A stretch of DNA of 17,813 nucleotides, taken from IMG/VR virus record IMGVR_UViG_2531839664_000031; one strand, given 5' to 3'. Source of the stretch: a virus (taxonomy: Duplodnaviria; Heunggongvirae; Uroviricota; Caudoviricetes). The notes below the pieces were generated by a model. The model was not told where the DNA came from and did not search any database. It saw nothing but the letters and a program-made list of their open reading frames with translations. Below, piece by piece: positions 1 through 16,286 of this stretch. Positions within the stretch are counted from its first letter, which is position 1. Every line of letters starts with the position of its first letter. Both the position numbers and the translations under genes were made by a program.

Positions 1-981
1 AGGCTTCCGCTTATTTGCGAAGGCGGAGTTCGACCGCCTCTGGAAAAAATGATGCCACTGCTGGATAAGCTGCGTGAGCAGTACGGGGTCGGACCGGTAT
101 GCAGCGAACTGCATATTGCCCCGTCAACGTATTACCATTGTCAGCAACAGCGACATCATCCGGATAAACGCAGTGCCCGTGCGCAGCACGATGACTGGCT
201 GAAGAGAGAGATACAGCGCGTATACGATGAAAATCACCAGGTATACGGTGTGCGTAAAGTCTGGCGTCAGTTGTTACGGGAAGGTATCAGAGTGGCCAGA
301 TGCACTGTGGCACGTCTCATGGCAGTTATGGGACTTACCGGTGTTCTCCGGGGTAAAAAGGTCCGCACTACCGTCAGCCGGAGAGCCGTTGCCGCAGGCG
401 ACCGCGTAAACCGTCAGTTCGTGGCAGAACGTCCAGACCAGTTGTGGGTGGCTGATTTTACCTGGGTAAGCACATGGCAGGGCTTCGTTTATGTGGCGTT
501 CATCATTGATGTGTTCGCCGGATACATCGTGGGATGGCGGGTCTCATCATCCATGGAAACGGCATTCGTGCTGGATGCACTGGAGCAGGCGTTGTGGGCC
601 CGTCGGCCGTCCGGCACAATCCACCACAGTGATAAAGGTTCTCAGTATGTATCGCTGGCCTACACGCAGCGGCTTAAGGAAGCCGGCTTACTGGCATCAA
701 CAGGGAGTACTGGTGACTCGTATGACAACGCGATGGCGGAGAGCATCAATGGCCTTTACAAAGCGGAGGTAATACACCGTAAGCGCTGGAAAAACCGTGC
801 AGAAGTGGAACTGGCCACACTAACGTGGGTGGACTGGTATAACAATCGACGATTGCTGGGAAGGCTGGGCCATACTCCTCCGGCAGAAGCAGAAAAAGCT
901 TATTATGCTTCCATCGGAAACAATGATCTGGCAGCCTGAGTTCACAGATAAAACACTCTCCAGGAAACCCGGGGCGGTTCA
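1..981 (+). mobile_element. Partial IS3-family insertion sequence (IS629/IS1203/IS3411-like), 3' portion; the window starts inside the element
   Basis: orfA tail in frame 2 (..FAKAEFDRLWKK, stop 50-52) overlaps the orfB start in the -1 frame at an A6 run (44-49), the usual IS3-family frameshift layout. 296-aa orfB follows. Right terminus ..CCGGGGCGGTTCA ends at 981 (TG..CA-type end). Specific IS name is from memory of the OrfB sequence. Confidence 0.6.
49..939 (+). CDS. IS3-family transposase OrfB (DDE/rve integrase-like catalytic subunit), IS629/IS1203-like
   Basis: 296-aa ORF with typical IS3-family OrfB features: ..QLWVADFTW.., ..HHSDKGSQY.., ..YDNAMAES.. and a C-terminal ..LGHTPPAEAE.. 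tail. Starts in the -1 frame overlapping the orfA stop. Confidence 0.85.
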   Translation: MMPLLDKLREQYGVGPVCSELHIAPSTYYHCQQQRHHPDKRSARAQHDDWLKREIQRVYDENHQVYGVRKVWRQLLREGIRVARCTVARLMAVMGLTGVLRGKKVRTTVSRRAVAAGDRVNRQFVAERPDQLWVADFTWVSTWQGFVYVAFIIDVFAGYIVGWRVSSSMETAFVLDALEQALWARRPSGTIHHSDKGSQYVSLAYTQRLKEAGLLASTGSTGDSYDNAMAESINGLYKAEVIHRKRWKNRAEVELATLTWVDWYNNRRLLGRLGHTPPAEAEKAYYASIGNNDLAA

Positions 982-1143: not shown

Positions 1144-2635
1144 CCACTTCAGAAAGCCAGTTCCGTCAGAAAGACCAGCAACTAAGTCTGGTTGAAGAGA
1201 CGGAGGCCTTCCTGTGCTCTGCACTGGCACGTGCCGAAGAAAAGATCGAAGAAGATGAACGGGAAATAGAACATCTGCAGACTCAGATAGAAAAACTGCG
1301 CCGGATGCTGTTCGGTACCCGTTCTGAAAAACTGCGTCGTGAAGTTGAACAGGCTGAGGCCCTGCTGAAACAACGCGAACAGGACAGCGATCGTTACAGT
1401 GGGCGGGAAGACGCTCCACAGGTTCCCCGCCAGTTGAGACAGCCGCGCCATCGTCGTCCGTTACCGGCACACCTTCCCCATGCAATACACCGTCTGGAGT
1501 CTGAAGAAAGCTGTTGCCCGGAGTGTGGCGGTGAGCTGGATTATCTGGAGGAAGTCAGTGCAGAACAACTGGAACTGGTGAGCAGCGCCCTGAAAGTGAT
1601 CCGCACTGTTCGGGTAAAAAAGCCTGTACAAAATGTGACTGCATCGTTGAAGCACCGGCGCCGTCCCGCCCGATAGAGCGTGGTATCGCGGGCCCCGGAT
1701 TACTTGCCCGCGTGTTAACGGGAAAATACTGCGAACAGCTGCCACTGTATCGTCAGAGTGAAATCTTTGCCCGACAGGGTGTCGAACTGAGCCGTGCATT
1801 ACTCTCCAACTGGGTTGACGCGTGCTGCCAGTTAATGACTCCGCTGAATGATGCCCTGTACCGTTATGTGATGAATACCCGCAAGCTTCACACTGACGAC
1901 ACACCGGTAAAGGTACTGGCACTGGGCCTGAAAAGACGAAAACAGGGCGCATCTGGACGTATGTCCGGAATGATCGCAATGCGGGTTCGTCATCTCCTCC
2001 GGCGGTCTGGTTCGCGTACTCACCGAACCGGCAGGGGAAACACCCGGAGCAACACCTCCGCCCCCTGCAGGCGGATGCGTTCAACGGTTACGATCGGCTG
2101 TTCAGTGCAGAACGTGAAGATGGTGCGCTGACAGAAGTTGCGTGCTGAGCCCATGTCCGGAGAAAAATCCACGATGTATACATCAGCAGCAAAAGTGCGA
2201 CGGCAGAAGAAGCCCTGAAGCGCATCAGTGAACTGTACGCCATCGAGGATGAAATACGGGGATTACCAGAGTCAGAGCGTCTTGAAGTCAGGCAGCAGCG
2301 AAGCAAAGCGTTACTGACGTCGCTGCATGAATGGATGGTGGAGAAGAATGGCACGCTGTCGAAAAAATCCAGACCAGGCGAAGCGTTCAGCTATGTACTG
2401 AATCAGTGGGACGCCCTCTGTTATTACAGTGATGACGGTCTGGCGGAGGCGGACAATAACACAGCGGAAAGAGCGCTTCGTGCCGTCTGTCTCGGGAAAA
2501 AGAATTACATGTTCTTCGGTAGCGATCACGGCGGCGAGCGTGGAGCACTGCTGTACGGGCTGATCGGCACCTGCCGTCTGAACGGTATCGATCCGGAAGC
2601 GTATCTGCGCCATATTCTGAGCGTACTACCGGAAT
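1137..2635 (+). pseudogene. IS66-family transposase (TnpC-like), inactivated by frameshifts and a nonsense codon and truncated at its 3' end by IS3
   Basis: Three consecutive ORFs in frames 0, 2 and 1 (1137-1676, 1712-2131, 2335-2673) together read as one IS66-type transposase: coiled-coil N-terminus with LFGTRSEKL, zinc-finger CPECGG..KACTKCDC, IERGIAGPGLLA, DDTPVKVLA, then ..GKKNYMFFGSD... Frame change at the A6 run 1616-1621, a second near 1925-1945, in-frame TGA at 2146-2148 where Trp is expected (ACWAHVRR context), and the reading frame runs into the IS3 left end at 2636. No ATG start and no tnpA/tnpB upstream. Confidence 0.75.
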
Positions 2636-2700
2636 TGATCTTACCCAGCAATAGTGGACACGCGGCTAAGTGAGTAAACTCTCAGTCAGAGGTGACTCAC

Positions 2701-3000
2701 ATGACAAAAACAGTATCAACCAGTAAAAAACCCCGTAAACAGCATTCGCCTGAATTTCGCAGTGAAGCCCTGAAGCTTGCTGAACGCATCGGTGTTACTG
2801 CCGCAGCCCGTGAACTCAGCCTGTATGAATCACAGCTCTACAACTGGCGCAGTAAACAGCAAAATCAGCAGACGTCTTCTGAACGTGAACTGGAGATGTC
2901 TACCGAGATTGCACGTCTCAAACGCCAGCTGGCAGAACGGGATGAAGAGCTGACCATCCTCCAAAAGGCCGCGACATACTTCGCGAAGCGCCTGAAATGA
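2701..3000 (+). CDS. insE: IS3 transposase OrfA (InsE), HTH DNA-binding subunit
   Basis: 99-aa product [29 protein letters not shown].. with a C-terminal leucine-zipper-like segment. ATG at 2701 (the ORF track starts 3 codons earlier at a GTG). Confidence 0.85.
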
Positions 3001-3862
3001 AGTATGTCTTTATTGAAAAACATCAGGCTGAGTTCAGCATCAAAGCAATGTGCCGCGTGCTCCGGGTGGCCCGCAGCGGCTGGTATACGTGGTGTCAGCG
3101 GCGGACAAGGATAAGTACATGTCAGCAGTTCCGCCAACACTGCGACAGCGTTGTCCTCGCGGCTTTTACCCGGTCAAAACAGCGTTACGGTGCCCCACGC
3201 CTGACGGATGAACTGCGTGCTCAGGGTTACCCCTTTACGTAAAAACCGTGGCGGCAAGCCTGCGCCGTCAGGGACTGAGGGCAAAGGCCTCCCGGAAGTT
3301 CAGCCCGGTCAGCTACCACGCACACGGCCTGCCTGTGTCAGAAAATCTGTTGGAGCAGGATTTTTACGCCAGTGGCCCGAACCAGAAGTGGGCAGGAGAC
3401 ATCACGTACTTACGTACAGATGAAGGCTGGCTGTATCTGGCAGTGGTCATTGACCTGTGGTCACGTGCCGTTATTGGCTGGTCAATGTCGCCACGCATGA
3501 CGGCGCAACTGGCCTGCGATGCCCTGCAGATGGCGCTGTGGCGGCGTAAGAGGCCCCGGAACGTTATCGTTCACACGGACCGTGGAGGCCAGTACTGTTC
3601 AGCAGATTATCAGGCGCAACTGAAGCGGCATAATCTGCGTGGAAGTATGAGCGCAAAAGGTTGCTGCTACGATAATGCCTGCGTGGAAAGCTTCTTTCAT
3701 TCGCTGAAAGTGGAATGTATCCATGGAGAACACTTTATCAGCCGGGAAATAATGCGGGCAACGGTGTTTAATTATATCGAATGTGATTACAATCGGTGGC
3801 GGCGGCACAGTTGGTGTGGCGGCCTCAGTCCGGAACAATTTGAAAACCAGAACCTCGCTTAG
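2997..3862 (+). pseudogene. insF: IS3 transposase OrfB (InsF), frameshifted
   Basis: Two ORFs (2997-3242 and 3248-3862) together read as Ins[23 protein letters not shown].. then ..[27 protein letters not shown]... The first ends ..GYPFT* and the second picks up ..[11 protein letters not shown].. in another frame, consistent with loss of one A near 3237-3240 (TTTACGTAAAAACC, where NVKTVAAS is expected). Confidence 0.8.
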
Positions 3863-4415
3863 GCCTGTGTCCATATTACGTGGGTAGGATCAGCTAACCT
3901 ACATGTGCAAAGCATGAAATTGGCCTCAGATTAATGTTAAGCGTCTTGCCGGACGCGTAATGTTAACTGGGGCTTTTCTCTATCTGCCTTTTGGTGTTCA
4001 TGCCTGAGGCAGATAGCCTCAAGCACCCGCAGCAATTCTAACTATCCAATAGATCAATGCCAACTTCTTTTCCTGCAACATCTCTCATCATAAGTGACCC
4101 AAATTCATCCAATCAGCACAAAAGAAACATTTAAAGCGTGAATGCTACCGAACGTTCATTTCAATTACATCGTTTTGATTTTTAACAGTTTTCACCTCAA
4201 CAAATCAAATGGCATTAGCATTCATCATGGAAGAAAGACTGATAAAAATGATCATTTTCAATGACTTATGATCACACCGGGTATTGCCAAGTCATTCCTT
4301 TTACGCCAGGATACCCACAAGTGAGTAGTCGAGGAGAGTTTGCCAATTTTTGCGATATAAATTTCAATGTCCGAAGAACCATTAATTGTTAATTGATTCT
4401 GTATAAGGTATTAAC

Positions 4416-5513
4416 ATGACAATTTCATATATTCCTATTCTGAAAGCGAAACGTTCTGAGTTATCAGCTTTATCGCAGCTATCCATTGAAAAGAAATCAA
4501 AAATTTTGCCATTACTCGAAATTGAACCAGTGCCAATTGACCCTGATTCAGGTATTGCCTTAAAGAGTTATAACGAGACTCTTATAGAGTTCGGAAAGAA
4601 AGTCTCAAAATCTTGCTCAGATATGCAAGGTGTTTATATTGATGGATTATTAATTGAAGAGCATTTTATTTCTCCTGAAGATCATTACCCTATAATAAAT
4701 GCGGTTAATCAAGTTAGAGATATGGGGATAAGAGTTATTCCTGTCAGTTCACCAACTCGCCCATCTAACTATAAAAGAGCGATTGATGAATTAATGCAGA
4801 ATGAAATATGCTTGAGATTAACCACGTTAGATCTGGTTAACCCACAATTAATAACGCATTACATTAATCATCTGGGAATTCCTTTATCAAATATTGATAT
4901 AATTATTGACTTAAGAGATGAGTTAACCGAGGATAAAATTAATTCCGGCGAACTATATACTTTGGCAATGGGATTGATAAACAATCTGGCGCACCTCAAT
5001 GAATACAGAAAAGTGATTCTTTCTGGGGGTTCATTTCCTACAGATCTCAGTGATATTTCTGTTGGTCTATATTCTCAACCTCGAATCGAGTGGATTTTAT
5101 GGCAGAGTTTAATGAATAGAAAAGAACTTGCCAGAAATGTGATTTATAGTGATTATGGAGTACAGCACCCCGACTTTAATAGGCTTTCGACGCGATTCCC
5201 TAGCGTATCTGCCAGCGTCAGATACTCTGGAGATAATGACTTTTGGGTATTTCGAGGAAGAGTAGCTAATCGCTTTGGTTATGAACAATATGGTAAACAT
5301 AGTGAGGATATTCTTGCTCATCGAGAATATTCAGGGCCTACATTCTGTGCGGGAGATAGAGACATAGAATATTATGCAAACGAGTATCAAGCCTACAAAG
5401 CCAATCCCTCTGGTAACTATAAATTTGGTAGCCCAGAGGTATGGCGTAGGATTGGGCAAAACCATCACATAACTAAGGTTGTTGAGCAACTCGCCACTCT
5501 TTACGGGCTTTAA
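4416..5513 (+). CDS. Uncharacterised 365-aa protein; resembles, from memory, proteins annotated as 'beta family protein' (the sce7725-type partner of sce7726-family proteins)
   Basis: 1.1-kb ORF in AT-rich DNA, which is unlikely by chance. ATG at 4416 preceded by AAGGT at 4402-4406. N-terminus MTISYIPILKAKRSELSAL. Alternating hydrophobic strand-like segments (YIPIL, VYIDGLL, IRVIPV, ICLRL, IDIIIDL, KVILSGG, VIYSDYG) suggest an alpha/beta fold. No recognisable catalytic motif. Family recollection is unverified. Confidence 0.7.
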   Translation: MTISYIPILKAKRSELSALSQLSIEKKSKILPLLEIEPVPIDPDSGIALKSYNETLIEFGKKVSKSCSDMQGVYIDGLLIEEHFISPEDHYPIINAVNQVRDMGIRVIPVSSPTRPSNYKRAIDELMQNEICLRLTTLDLVNPQLITHYINHLGIPLSNIDIIIDLRDELTEDKINSGELYTLAMGLINNLAHLNEYRKVILSGGSFPTDLSDISVGLYSQPRIEWILWQSLMNRKELARNVIYSDYGVQHPDFNRLSTRFPSVSASVRYSGDNDFWVFRGRVANRFGYEQYGKHSEDILAHREYSGPTFCAGDRDIEYYANEYQAYKANPSGNYKFGSPEVWRRIGQNHHITKVVEQLATLYGL

Positions 5514-6051
5514 GTTTAACTCGAACAGCTTCACGAAGCTCGCCAACATCCATACTATTGGCGAGTTTTGACCATAAGACGCGTTTAGGTTTATTTTTCA
5601 AATTCTGTAGCTCCCCTACATCACTTAATAGGGAAAGCAATTCATCTTTCCAAAGAAGCATTGTTAAGGAAAGTTTGTCCACTTGTGGATTCAACTTGCT
5701 AGTTCGAATTGTTTTTAAATGGATACCTTGCCGTGCACCTTGCGTAACTTGCTTTATCCCCCACCATGATGGAACTATGCTTAAAGCATCATAAAGATGG
5801 CAATCAGAGACAACCAAAGTTACTTTATCCATCACTGATGAGTAATGTTGCACCTGCGCTGGTAATCTGAGCAAGTTATCACTCTTGCTCTTCAACTCAT
5901 AACCATGTATAAGCCCATTGATCACTGCTATATCAGCTCTGCTAGCCCCTAGATTCATCGTAAACTCATCAATGATTAGGGTGTCAGGATCTTTATGATG
6001 ATCTCTCAGAATCTTGGCATGCACAGCCTTTCTTACATCAATGTCTCTCAT
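5473..6051 (-). CDS. Uncharacterised 192-aa protein with a PD-(D/E)xK-like nuclease motif; resembles, from memory, 'sce7726 family' proteins
   Basis: Convergent with the 365-aa gene and overlapping its 3' end by 41 nt. Motif ..IIDEF..-..RADIAVINGLIHGYELKSKSD.. fits the D-x11-E-x-K signature of restriction-endonuclease-fold nucleases. Basic C-terminal tail. No clear Shine-Dalgarno before ATG 6051, so the start is uncertain. Confidence 0.6.
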   Translation of the reverse strand: MRDIDVRKAVHAKILRDHHKDPDTLIIDEFTMNLGASRADIAVINGLIHGYELKSKSDNLLRLPAQVQHYSSVMDKVTLVVSDCHLYDALSIVPSWWGIKQVTQGARQGIHLKTIRTSKLNPQVDKLSLTMLLWKDELLSLLSDVGELQNLKNKPKRVLWSKLANSMDVGELREAVRVKLKARKEWRVAQQP

Positions 6052-6373
6052 ACCATAGTTGCGCTTTCATCGACTCTCTCAAGCCATGATTCTATATCAT
6101 GGTTCGCATGAATGCCATTTGATATGACCAGTGGTTAAACATTGCACAGAAAAGTGGATGTGTATTTTAACAAAAGCAATGACGGCTAACCATGTTGGTA
6201 TGTCGATAAAATGTTTCAACGTAAGCATTATCTGTTCCGCCCTTTCGGGCGGCCTCCTGATGTTCTGAGGGTGCAGAAATCCCTCCGGTTAAGGATTAAA
6301 TTTTATTTACAGAACTGAATTTAATTATTCAGATATACGTATCTGTAACCTTACTAACCTACTCACTGGATGC

Positions 6374-6847
6374 CTATTTCATAAAAATAATCCAGTGGGT
6401 TTTATCGTTTTTTCCTGTTCGTTGACCGATAACAGGTTTTCTGTCGGTCAGTGCCAATATCTGGCGAACAGGTATTTGCGTTTCATTCCATTTAAAAATC
6501 AGAACGCCGTATGGACGCAACACACGAAAGGCTTCTTTAAATCCCTGCCGCAAATCATCACGCCAGGTATCTTTATTCAGCCGTCCATATTTCTTTCCCA
6601 TCCTGGCGTTATCACCAACACGCTCAAGATGCGGAGGATCGAATATAACCATCGAAAAAGATGCGTCTGCAAATGGTAGTGCACGAAAATCAGCTATCAG
6701 ATCAGGACTGATAATCAGGCGTCGTCCATCACACAATGTGTGCTCTTCCTTTCTGATATCGCTAAATATCGCCCGGTCGTCATTCTTATCGAACCAGAAC
6801 ATGCGACTGCCACAGCACATATCAAGAATGGTTGCCGGTGCACTCAC
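6374..6847 (-). CDS. Small SAM-dependent methyltransferase-like protein (putative phage DNA methyltransferase)
   Basis: 157 aa. Motif I-like LDMCCGS near the N-terminus and motif IV-like FDPPH (DPPY/H type) about 60 residues later. GTG start with AGGAGG 6-8 nt upstream, overlapping the stop of the upstream gene by 4 nt. Confidence 0.6.
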   Translation of the reverse strand: MSAPATILDMCCGSRMFWFDKNDDRAIFSDIRKEEHTLCDGRRLIISPDLIADFRALPFADASFSMVIFDPPHLERVGDNARMGKKYGRLNKDTWRDDLRQGFKEAFRVLRPYGVLIFKWNETQIPVRQILALTDRKPVIGQRTGKNDKTHWIIFMK

Positions 6848-15889: not shown

Positions 15890-16084
15890 ATGAGATATGA
15901 CAATGTTAAACCATGTCCATTTTGTGGTTGTCCATCAGTAACGGTGAAAGCCATTTCAGGATATTACCGAGCGAAGTGTAACGGATGCGAATCCCGAACC
16001 GGTTATGGTGGAAGTGAAAAAGAAGCACTCGAAAGATGGAATAAACGAACCACTGGAAATAATAATGGAGGTGTTCATGTATAA
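15890..16084 (+). CDS. ralR: RalR (Lar), restriction-alleviation protein, reported as the toxin of a type I toxin-antitoxin pair
   Basis: 64 aa from ATG 15890 (MRYDNVKPCPFCGCPSVTVKAISGYYRAKCNGCESRTGYGG..), with a C-x2-C ... C-x2-C zinc-ribbon pattern. A partner antisense sRNA (RalA) is expected nearby, but I could not place it from sequence. Confidence 0.85.
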   Translation: MRYDNVKPCPFCGCPSVTVKAISGYYRAKCNGCESRTGYGGSEKEALERWNKRTTGNNNGGVHV

Positions 16085-16286
16085 AATTACCGCCACTATT
16101 GAAAAGGAAGGTGGCACTCCTACTAACTGGACAAGATATTCAAAATCTAAACTAACGAAATCAGAATGCGAAAAAATGCTCTCAGGTAAAAAAGAAGCAG
16201 GCGTTTCCAGAGAGCAGAAAGTAAAACTGATAAATTTTAATTGCGAGAAACTTCAGTCCTCGAGAATTGCATTGTATTCAAATTAA
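16077..16286 (+). CDS. ydaC: YdaC, small Rac prophage protein (69 aa)
   Basis: ATG 16077 with GGAGG 6 nt upstream, overlapping the ralR stop. MYKITATIEKEGGTPTNWTRYSKSKLTKSECEKML.. Confidence 0.8.
   Translation: MYKITATIEKEGGTPTNWTRYSKSKLTKSECEKMLSGKKEAGVSREQKVKLINFNCEKLQSSRIALYSN

What the first reader, a model, noticed from the sequence alone, without database searches (positions are those of the whole stretch)
4416..5513. The 365-aa cassette protein has no recognisable catalytic motif; repeating strand/helix pattern suggests an alpha/beta enzyme or sensor
About eight short hydrophobic strand-like segments, several followed by acidic or polar residues, alternate with helical stretches, and the C-terminal third is rich in aromatic residues (YSDYGVQHPDF, FWVFRGR, EYYANEYQAYK). 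This is compatible with a TIM-barrel-like or Rossmann-like fold of unknown activity. It is the uncharacterised half of the cassette and the most likely place for new biochemistry.
Basis: inference. Interest (0 to 1): 0.6.

Follow-up and report, generated by a model that had tools for sequence, protein, structure and literature searches.

The report
Prophage TIM-barrel partner of a nuclease
The 365-aa protein belongs to the already named "Beta protein" family (relatives of phage P4 β and PD-λ-2C, both parts of proven anti-phage systems); it is predicted to be a TIM barrel of unknown chemistry and is almost always encoded tail-to-tail with a small DNA-cutting enzyme.

Summary
The ORF at 4416-5513 is real. 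It is not an orphan. It matches Pfam PF14350 (Beta_protein) over its full length, and RefSeq already calls the identical E. coli O121 protein "beta family protein". No solved structure is close, and no paper I could search gives a biochemical activity.

The 192-aa partner (5473-6051, minus strand) is an sce7726 / P4-cII-family PD-(D/E)xK nuclease with intact E29/D40/E52/K54.

The tail-to-tail pair with overlapping 3' ends is close to obligate. It appears in 77 of 78 genome loci from many phyla and in 78 of 80 viral loci. The upstream add-ons vary: gop in P4, HigB plus Xre-M78 peptidase in the PD-λ-2 type, or nothing, as here.

The window cassette is therefore the minimal two-gene form. It sits in a low-GC variable spot of a Rac-like prophage.

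My best reading is an anti-phage module. Beta would be a ligand-binding or catalytic sensor/licensing subunit for the nuclease, not a classical antitoxin. One E. coli strain carries an IS1-split beta next to an intact nuclease gene. The mechanism is inferred, not shown.

The parts
4416..5513 (+). Beta-family protein gene (365 aa), predicted TIM barrel
5473..6051 (-). sce7726 / P4-cII-family PD-(D/E)xK nuclease gene (192 aa), convergent partner
5473..5513 (.). 41-nt overlap of the two 3' coding ends (tail-to-tail)
   Evidence: Coordinates. The same convergent overlap (8-140 nt) occurs in 77 of 78 genome loci and in most of 80 viral loci. No intrinsic terminator is predicted in or near the overlap.
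4041..6301 (.). Low-GC two-gene cassette (variable cargo of a prophage hotspot)
   Evidence: GC is 0.34-0.41 here against about 0.51-0.57 in the left flank and 0.49-0.55 from about 6500 rightwards. Other lambdoid phages match only the flanks, 3900-4040 and about 6302-6400, and carry different genes in between.
4041..4415 (+). AT-rich non-coding leader upstream of beta; no partner ORF
   Evidence: Only ORFs of 43 aa or less are present. It is not conserved among related cassettes. There is no gop homologue.
6089..6118 (-). Promoter-like site upstream of the nuclease gene (weak evidence)
   Evidence: ATGGCA-18-TAGAAT, 9 of 12 matches. The number of such sites in the region is no higher than in shuffles.

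Best explanation
The 365-aa protein is a canonical member of the Beta_protein family (PF14350). With the convergent 192-aa PD-(D/E)xK nuclease it forms the minimal, stand-alone form of a very widespread two-gene module. P4 gop-β-cII and PD-λ-2 are elaborated versions of that module. I propose that the cassette is a prophage-borne anti-phage (superinfection-exclusion / abortive-infection) module. In this model Beta is a TIM-barrel subunit with a conserved Asp/Arg/Lys/His pocket on the C-terminal face of the barrel. That pocket binds or converts an anionic ligand, probably phosphorylated or nucleotide-like. Through it Beta senses infection and licenses the nuclease, which then cuts DNA. Convergent, overlapping transcription may set the ratio of the two products. 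What is shown: family membership, predicted folds, intact nuclease motif, near-obligate pairing and gene geometry, hotspot location. What is inferred: defence function of this two-gene form, Beta as sensor/activator, nature of the ligand, any role of the 3' overlap.
For: Family and fold. The window protein keeps all family-invariant polar residues. These are Y5, K10, K12, E15, D76, R134, D161, D165, R198, R223, R240, D246, Y270, W343, H350 and H351, each conserved in at least 78 of 84 sequences. In the model most of them sit at or just after the C-terminal ends of successive strands. Examples are K10/K12 after strand 5-9, D76 ending 73-76, R134 in 131-135, D165 ending 160-165, R223 after 217-222 and D246 ending 243-246. 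That is where TIM-barrel active sites lie (established knowledge). Partner nuclease. Pairing: 77 of 78 genome loci from Proteobacteria, Firmicutes, Bacteroidota, CPR, Acidobacteriota, Planctomycetota and others. Also 78 of 80 viral loci probed from the nuclease side. The pairwise identities of the two proteins co-vary, r=0.87. Defence context: relatives are parts of tested systems. gop-β-cII protects against λ and P1 (PMC9122126). PD-λ-2C is required for defence against λvir but not for neutralising the toxin (PMC9519451). A phage gene triggers cell death through gop-β-cII (bioRxiv 10.1101/2023.04.06.535777). Location: a low-GC variable slot of a Rac-like prophage beside hok/sok. Other two-gene copies lie between lysis and terminase genes of lambdoid prophages and next to the primase of P4-like satellites. 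Not a plain antitoxin: in E. coli PEC209 beta is split by IS1 while the identical nuclease gene is intact.
Against: No experiment exists on a two-gene beta+sce7726 cassette. PADLOC models would not call it a complete system, because gop, PD-λ-2 A and PD-λ-2 B are absent. P4 β, the only relative with genetics on neutralisation, deviates at 10 family-invariant positions, so its behaviour may not transfer. The PD-λ-2 clone extends only 396 nt beyond the system end. If ECOR42 has the usual convergent nuclease gene, that clone lacked its catalytic N-terminus and yet still defended. Beta's role in defence would then not require the nuclease. The ligand or chemistry is unknown, and the structural hits are generic TIM barrels. 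The PEC209 observation is a single genome, and nothing is known about expression there.
Confidence: 0.5

Rival explanations
1. Classical toxin-antitoxin pair. The nuclease is a constitutively toxic effector, Beta is its protein antitoxin, and infection removes Beta.
For: P4 gop is toxic without β, and the locus was read as TA-like (PMC9122126). PD-λ-2 was classed as TA-derived. Tight co-inheritance, r=0.87.
Against: E. coli PEC209 carries an IS1-split beta with an intact, identical nuclease gene. PD-λ-2C is not needed to neutralise toxicity. A 365-aa TIM barrel with about 16 invariant polar residues is unlike a labile antitoxin. The genes are convergent, not an operon.
Confidence: 0.15
2. Restriction-modification-like pair. 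Beta is a TIM-barrel enzyme that marks self DNA or nucleotides, by analogy with TGT-like DpdA, and the nuclease cuts unmarked DNA.
Confidence: 0.12
3. Beta itself is the effector: an enzyme that depletes or converts a metabolite or nucleotide on infection. The nuclease is accessory or regulatory.
For: There is a conserved active-site-like pocket. PD-λ-2C is required for defence. The published PD-λ-2 clone probably lacked a complete convergent nuclease gene (inference from the geometry).
Against: The nuclease keeps an intact catalytic motif in 82 of 83 sequences and is more conserved than Beta (mean pairwise identity 0.44 against 0.33). I could not confirm that ECOR42 has the nuclease gene.
Confidence: 0.13
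4. Not defence. The pair serves the mobile element's own life cycle, for example DNA repair or processing, or regulation of lysogeny as the historical name 'cII' suggests.
For: Some sources label family members 'regulatory protein' or 'MmcB-like DNA repair protein'.
Against: The cassette sits in variable accessory slots that hold unrelated cargo in sister phages. The same pair occurs in non-phage contexts across phyla, usually behind HigB/Xre-peptidase modules. Its tested relatives defend against phages.
Confidence: 0.1

Closest known systems
Phage P4 gop-β-cII (PADLOC gop_beta_cll)
   Same: β and cII are homologues of the two window proteins. RefSeq names them 'beta family protein' and 'sce7726 family protein'. 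The β/cII orientation is convergent in both. P4 carries the genes in its non-essential accessory region (PMC9122126), and the window carries them in a variable prophage slot. The P4 system is a tested anti-phage system (PMC9122126).
   Different: There is no gop in the window. β is only 23% identical to the window protein, and the PADLOC 'beta' model matches only residues 4-40. P4 β has lost 10 family-invariant residues that the window protein keeps. P4 cII is 264 aa with a C-terminal extension. The P4 genes are separated by a 27-nt gap with a terminator and do not overlap.
PD-λ-2 (Vassallo et al. 2022), component C
   Same: This is the best PADLOC match (PD-Lambda-2_C, E=1.8e-41, full length). 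Loci of the PD-λ-2 architecture keep the same invariant residues (L039 and L030 columns). They also keep the same convergent nuclease gene.
   Different: Components A (HigB-like) and B (Xre HTH-M78 peptidase) are absent from the window. The published system is defined as three genes and does not include the nuclease.
NCBIfam sce7725 / sce7726 gene pair
   Same: The 192-aa protein is a bona fide sce7726 member (NF033832, 191 bits). The Beta N-terminal motif gives a faint sce7725 match (residues 5-39).
   Different: The sce7725 model scores 12.3 bits against a cut-off of 60. Beta is at most a sister family of sce7725.
Generic (β/α)8 TIM-barrel enzymes (Obc1/ObcA, DUF849/Kce, MTHFR, TGT/DpdA, ribulose-phosphate-binding barrels)
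   Different: Sequence identity is 3-14%. There is no profile match to any of these families. None of their catalytic signatures was recognised. An extra C-terminal three-helix region (about 290-363) carries W343, H350 and H351.
3dnx_A (SPO1766) and other PD-(D/E)xK nucleases, for the partner protein
   Different: There is no sequence-level PDB or Pfam hit in the local libraries. The partner has an added C-terminal helical region with an invariant LLW and a near-invariant R183.

Membership tests
Pfam PF14350 Beta_protein / RefSeq 'beta family protein' | Full-length match to the family HMM above the gathering score | tested here: met
   178.3 bits against a cut-off of 27; residues 5-356 cover profile positions 1-341 of 342. 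The identical RefSeq protein WP_000156213.1 is named 'beta family protein'.
Pfam PF14350 Beta_protein / RefSeq 'beta family protein' | Family-invariant residues retained | tested here: met
   All positions conserved in at least 90% of 84 diverse members are present in the window protein.
Beta + sce7726 two-gene module | Convergent sce7726-family gene immediately downstream, with 3' ends overlapping | tested here: met
   41-nt overlap in the window. The same geometry occurs in 77 of 78 genome loci and 78 of 80 viral loci.
P4 gop-β-cII system | gop gene directly upstream of β | tested here: not met
   No ORF above 43 aa in 3863-4415. tblastn with Gop against the window gives nothing below E=0.4.
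P4 gop-β-cII system | β and cII homologues, convergent | tested here: met
   β 23% identity, E=1e-8. cII 28% identity, E=2e-17. PADLOC 'cll' E=2.4e-28.
PD-λ-2 system | HigB-like component A and Xre-M78 peptidase component B upstream of C | tested here: not met
   Both are absent from the window. They are present upstream of beta in 36 of the 78 genome loci.
PD-λ-2 system | Component C (Beta family) | tested here: met
   PDLC03983, E=1.8e-41, residues 4-362.
NCBIfam sce7725 family | Score above the curated cut-off of NF033831 | tested here: not met
   12.3 bits against a cut-off of 60, N-terminal 35 residues only.
(β/α)8 TIM-barrel fold | Barrel of alternating strands and helices with structural matches to TIM barrels | tested here: met
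tRNA-guanine transglycosylase / DpdA family | Sequence-profile membership (Pfam TGT) and a zinc-binding Cys/His site | tested here: not met
Type II toxin-antitoxin pair | Toxin lethal when the antitoxin gene is lost; co-directional operon | tested here: inconclusive
   The genes are convergent. One natural genome has beta split by IS1 with the nuclease gene intact, which argues against lethality. Expression there is unknown.
Anti-phage defence system (functional class) | Reduces phage plating or triggers abortive infection | not testable with these tools
   Only relatives have been tested (PMC9122126, PMC9519451).

The most novel reading that the evidence does not exclude
Beta proteins are a previously unrecognised class of TIM-barrel enzymes or ligand sensors. 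With a PD-(D/E)xK nuclease encoded tail-to-tail they form one ancient two-gene immune core spread across bacteria, including CPR lineages. gop-β-cII and PD-λ-2 are derived versions of this core, and PD-λ-2 would have an overlooked fourth gene. The conserved 3' overlap of the two genes would be part of the switch, through antisense or transcription-collision control of the nuclease.
Probability: 0.3. Interest if true: 0.7.

Novelty: new variant of a known kind. Interest (0 to 1): 0.45.

Why it matters
Two validated E. coli defence systems, gop-β-cII and PD-λ-2, contain a Beta-family protein whose activity nobody has defined. The window shows the simplest natural context of that protein: Beta plus one nuclease, with no other toxin or regulator. 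That makes it the cleanest construct for working out what the Beta TIM barrel binds or catalyses. The survey here also suggests that the nuclease gene is the constant partner of Beta in nearly all loci sampled. The current three-gene definition of PD-λ-2 may therefore be incomplete. If the pocket turns out to sense or make a small molecule, it would add a new sensor/enzyme class to bacterial immunity. If not, the protein remains an ordinary member of a named family.

Tried and rejected
1. PDB sequence and profile searches for both proteins returned nothing meaningful.
2. Pfam at E<=10 on all alignment members showed no second family for either protein. The local Pfam copy lacks PF26915.
3. Foldseek against PDB gave only weak generic TIM hits, TM 0.3-0.48. 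The afdb50 library was unavailable.
5. A search for gop or any upstream partner ORF in the window found none.
6. A 16-nt element shared by the two upstream regions (4201-4216 and 6111-6126) looked like a common operator. It is within the range of shuffled controls (maximum 15) and absent from 15 related cassettes, so I rejected it.
7. The promoter/terminator scan showed no enrichment over shuffles and no terminator at the overlap.
8. I tried to find E. coli PD-λ-2C and its neighbourhood with a profile of PD-λ-2-type Betas. Only environmental sequences were listed. Other E. coli sce7726 clusters turned out to be further two-gene cassettes, not PD-λ-2. Whether ECOR42 has the nuclease gene therefore remains unverified.
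9. Literature searches for sce7726, sce7725, PF14350, PF26915, 'beta family protein' and PD-Lambda-2 found no mechanistic study of the family. A search for the original P4 gop paper returned noise.

Full report
**Observation.** An AAGG ribosome-binding motif lies upstream of the ATG. The ORF lies in a low-GC island, with GC 0.34-0.41 from about 4000 to 6500 against about 0.51-0.57 on the left and 0.49-0.55 further right. A 192-aa ORF on the opposite strand (5473-6051) overlaps its 3' end by 41 nt.

**Where the window comes from.** The 2.5 kb around the cassette is 100% identical to chromosomes of E. coli O121:H19 and related strains. 93 of 5426 complete E. coli genomes hold at least 80% of it. 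RefSeq annotates the two genes as 'beta family protein' and 'sce7726 family protein' inside a Rac-like lambdoid prophage. Nearby genes include hokD, an IS3, a SAM methyltransferase, ydaV/U/T, kilR and recE/recT. Phage Rac-SA53 carries the same pair at 99.5% identity, with notes 'beta' and 'CII phage-like protein'. Other lambdoid phages match only the flanks (3900-4040 and about 6302-6400) and hold unrelated small genes in between. The site is therefore a variable accessory slot.

**Identity of the 365-aa protein.**
- It matches Pfam PF14350 Beta_protein over its full length (E=3.8e-52).
- It matches PADLOC PD-Lambda-2_C (E=1.8e-41). The P4 'beta' model matches it only weakly, at the N-terminus.
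- It matches phrog_9159.
- It is 23% identical to P4 β.
- The family is large. A profile search found 4394 50%-identity cluster representatives at E<=1e-3 and 2060 at E<=1e-30. The 150 listed are mostly 340-385 aa and match over nearly their whole length, so they look single-domain.

**Fold.**
- AlphaFold2 with a 20-sequence alignment gives a confident model, pLDDT 91.3 and pTM 0.91, with alternating strands and helices followed by three C-terminal helices.
- Foldseek gives weak matches to triosephosphate isomerases.
- No PDB sequence or profile hit exists. No other Pfam family is hit at E<=10.
- The TIM-barrel guess is therefore supported, and no known enzyme family can be assigned.

**Conserved pocket.** I aligned 84 members drawn from many phyla. 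Positions conserved in at least 90% of them include Y5, K10, K12, R13, E15, D76, R134, D161, D165, R198, R223, R240, D246, Y270, W343, H350 and H351. The window protein has all of them. In the model most of these lie at or just after the C-terminal ends of successive strands, which is the usual TIM-barrel active-site face. The mixture of Asp, Arg, Lys and His suggests an anionic ligand, possibly phosphorylated, or a metal. That last point is inference. P4 β deviates at ten of these positions, so it may be a degenerate member.

**The partner.**
- The 192-aa protein is an sce7726-family member (NF033832, 191 bits).
- It matches the PADLOC P4 'cll' model (E=2.4e-28).
- It is 28% identical to P4 cII and 42% identical to gp32 of Gordonia phage Powerball.
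- E29, D40, E52 and K54 are invariant in a 20-sequence alignment and present in 82 of 83 sequences of the wider set.

**Gene geometry across genomes.**
- A scan of one genome per species returned 78 loci with a Beta relative.
- In 77 of them a convergent sce7726 gene follows immediately and overlaps the 3' end by 8-140 nt. The commonest values are 50, 44, 41, 35 and 32 nt. In the single exception the contig ends 101 nt after beta.
- The loci come from Enterobacterales, Firmicutes, Bacteroidota, Patescibacteria, Acidobacteriota, Planctomycetota, Chloroflexota and others.
- Probing viral contigs with the nuclease gave the reciprocal result. 78 of 80 loci had a convergent Beta, although many of these are near-identical E. 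coli prophages.
- The exceptions were two rearranged or fragmented betas and one locus (L138) where a kinase-like gene and a PP2C-like gene replace beta.
- Pairwise identities of the two proteins co-vary, r=0.87. The nuclease is the more conserved of the two.
- P4 itself has the convergent pair, but with a 27-nt gap and a terminator.

**Variable add-ons upstream of beta among the 78 loci**.
- 36 loci have a HigB-like toxin plus an Xre HTH-M78 peptidase. This is the PD-λ-2 A/B architecture.
- 10 loci have the Xre-peptidase plus an unknown protein of about 200 aa.
- 5 loci have the Xre-peptidase only.
- 27 loci have none of these.

The window belongs to the last class. It has no ORF above 43 aa upstream and no gop. 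Further two-gene copies occur between the lysis and terminase genes of lambdoid prophages and next to the primase of P4-like satellites.

**What is known experimentally.**
- gop-β-cII protects E. coli against λ and P1. Gop is toxic without β (PMC9122126).
- A phage accessory gene, orf184, triggers cell death through gop-β-cII (bioRxiv 10.1101/2023.04.06.535777).
- In PD-λ-2, component B is toxic and A neutralises it. C, the Beta protein, is not needed for neutralisation but is required for defence (PMC9519451).
- The PD-λ-2 clone extends only 396 nt past the end of the system. Given the geometry seen in all PD-λ-2-type loci here, it probably lacked the catalytic N-terminus of a convergent nuclease gene. 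I could not check this.
- I found no paper on the biochemistry of the family.

**Mechanism.** I favour a two-gene anti-phage module. In it Beta is the sensing or licensing TIM-barrel subunit, catalytic or ligand-binding, and the PD-(D/E)xK protein is the DNA-cutting effector. The arguments are as follows.
- The pairing is near-obligate and the two proteins co-evolve.
- The nuclease motif is intact.
- The cassette occupies accessory slots of phages and satellites.
- The relatives have defence phenotypes.
- PD-λ-2C is needed for defence rather than for neutralisation.
- In E. coli PEC209 beta is split by IS1 while the identical nuclease gene is intact, which a strict toxin-antitoxin relationship would not tolerate.

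The conserved 3' overlap, with no terminator in it, invites the idea of mutual transcriptional or antisense control. I have no test of that. The rivals are a classical TA pair, an R-M-like pair, Beta as the effector, and a non-defence role. They are weighed in their own section of this report.

**Novelty and score.** The protein is an already named family member, and RefSeq annotates the cassette gene by gene. The two-gene form is not covered by the PADLOC models that matched. Two further points appear to be new within what I could search: the generality of the tail-to-tail Beta-nuclease core, and its presence in all PD-λ-2-type loci sampled. I rate the finding as a new variant of a known kind, with moderate interest.

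Noticed in passing
L023-L084 (36 loci), for example L039:1825-3484 and L070:3396-6771: Every locus with the PD-λ-2 architecture (HigB-like, Xre-M78 peptidase, Beta) also has a convergent sce7726 nuclease gene overlapping the 3' end of beta. The published PD-λ-2 is defined as three genes. Its clone (ECOR42 QOYB01000002, 228989-232396) leaves only 396 nt beyond beta, too short for a complete nuclease gene.
   Followed up: partly
L096:2017-4428 (E. coli PEC209): The beta gene is split by an IS1 insertion after about codon 160. The adjacent sce7726 gene encodes a protein identical to the window's (WP_001204666.1) and is intact.
   Followed up: partly
L138:4001-5810 (IMG/VR contig): This is the one viral locus where sce7726 is not followed by beta. 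Two co-directional genes encoding a Ser/Thr-kinase-like fragment and a PP2C-like phosphatase take its place.
   Followed up: no
window 2442-4028: An IS3-family element (transposase CDS 2700-3862, +) sits between the hokD coding sequence (2442-2597, -) and its sok/leader region (Rfam sok, 3858-4028, -). The hok/sok locus next to the cassette is therefore interrupted in this strain.
   Followed up: partly
L007:651-1718 (phage P4 β): P4 β differs from the family consensus at ten otherwise near-invariant positions (K10R, K12R, R13S, D76N, D161I, R198A, R223Y, R240D, Y270I, H350L). This suggests a degenerate, possibly non-catalytic member.
   Followed up: partly
L007:247-648 (phage P4 gop): By eye, Gop appears to have two N-terminal hydrophobic helices followed by a polar, coiled-coil-like tail. 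That would make it a membrane-acting effector rather than a nuclease-type toxin. It has no Pfam match.
   Followed up: no
window 6237-6252 (-): A GC-rich hairpin with a GAAA loop (CCGCCC-GAAA-GGGCGG) and no T-run lies between the methyltransferase gene and the nuclease gene, about 190 nt upstream of the nuclease start.
   Followed up: no
window 16083-16261 (-) and 8-123 (+): Rfam finds a RalA antitoxin sRNA (225 bits). It also finds an ALIL pseudoknot (114 bits), which points to a second IS3-family element at the left edge of the window.
   Followed up: no
window 1547-2032 (-): RefSeq annotates a Doc-family (death-on-curing) toxin gene here, with a small upstream gene (2051-2230, -). With hok/sok and RalA this puts several toxin-antitoxin elements in one prophage.
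   Followed up: no
L008:2938-4750 (Gordonia phage Powerball gp33/gp32): An actinophage carries the same convergent pair with an 89-nt overlap, between the integrase region and a HicAB module. The nuclease is 42% identical to the E. coli one, whereas Beta is only about 24% identical.
   Followed up: partly
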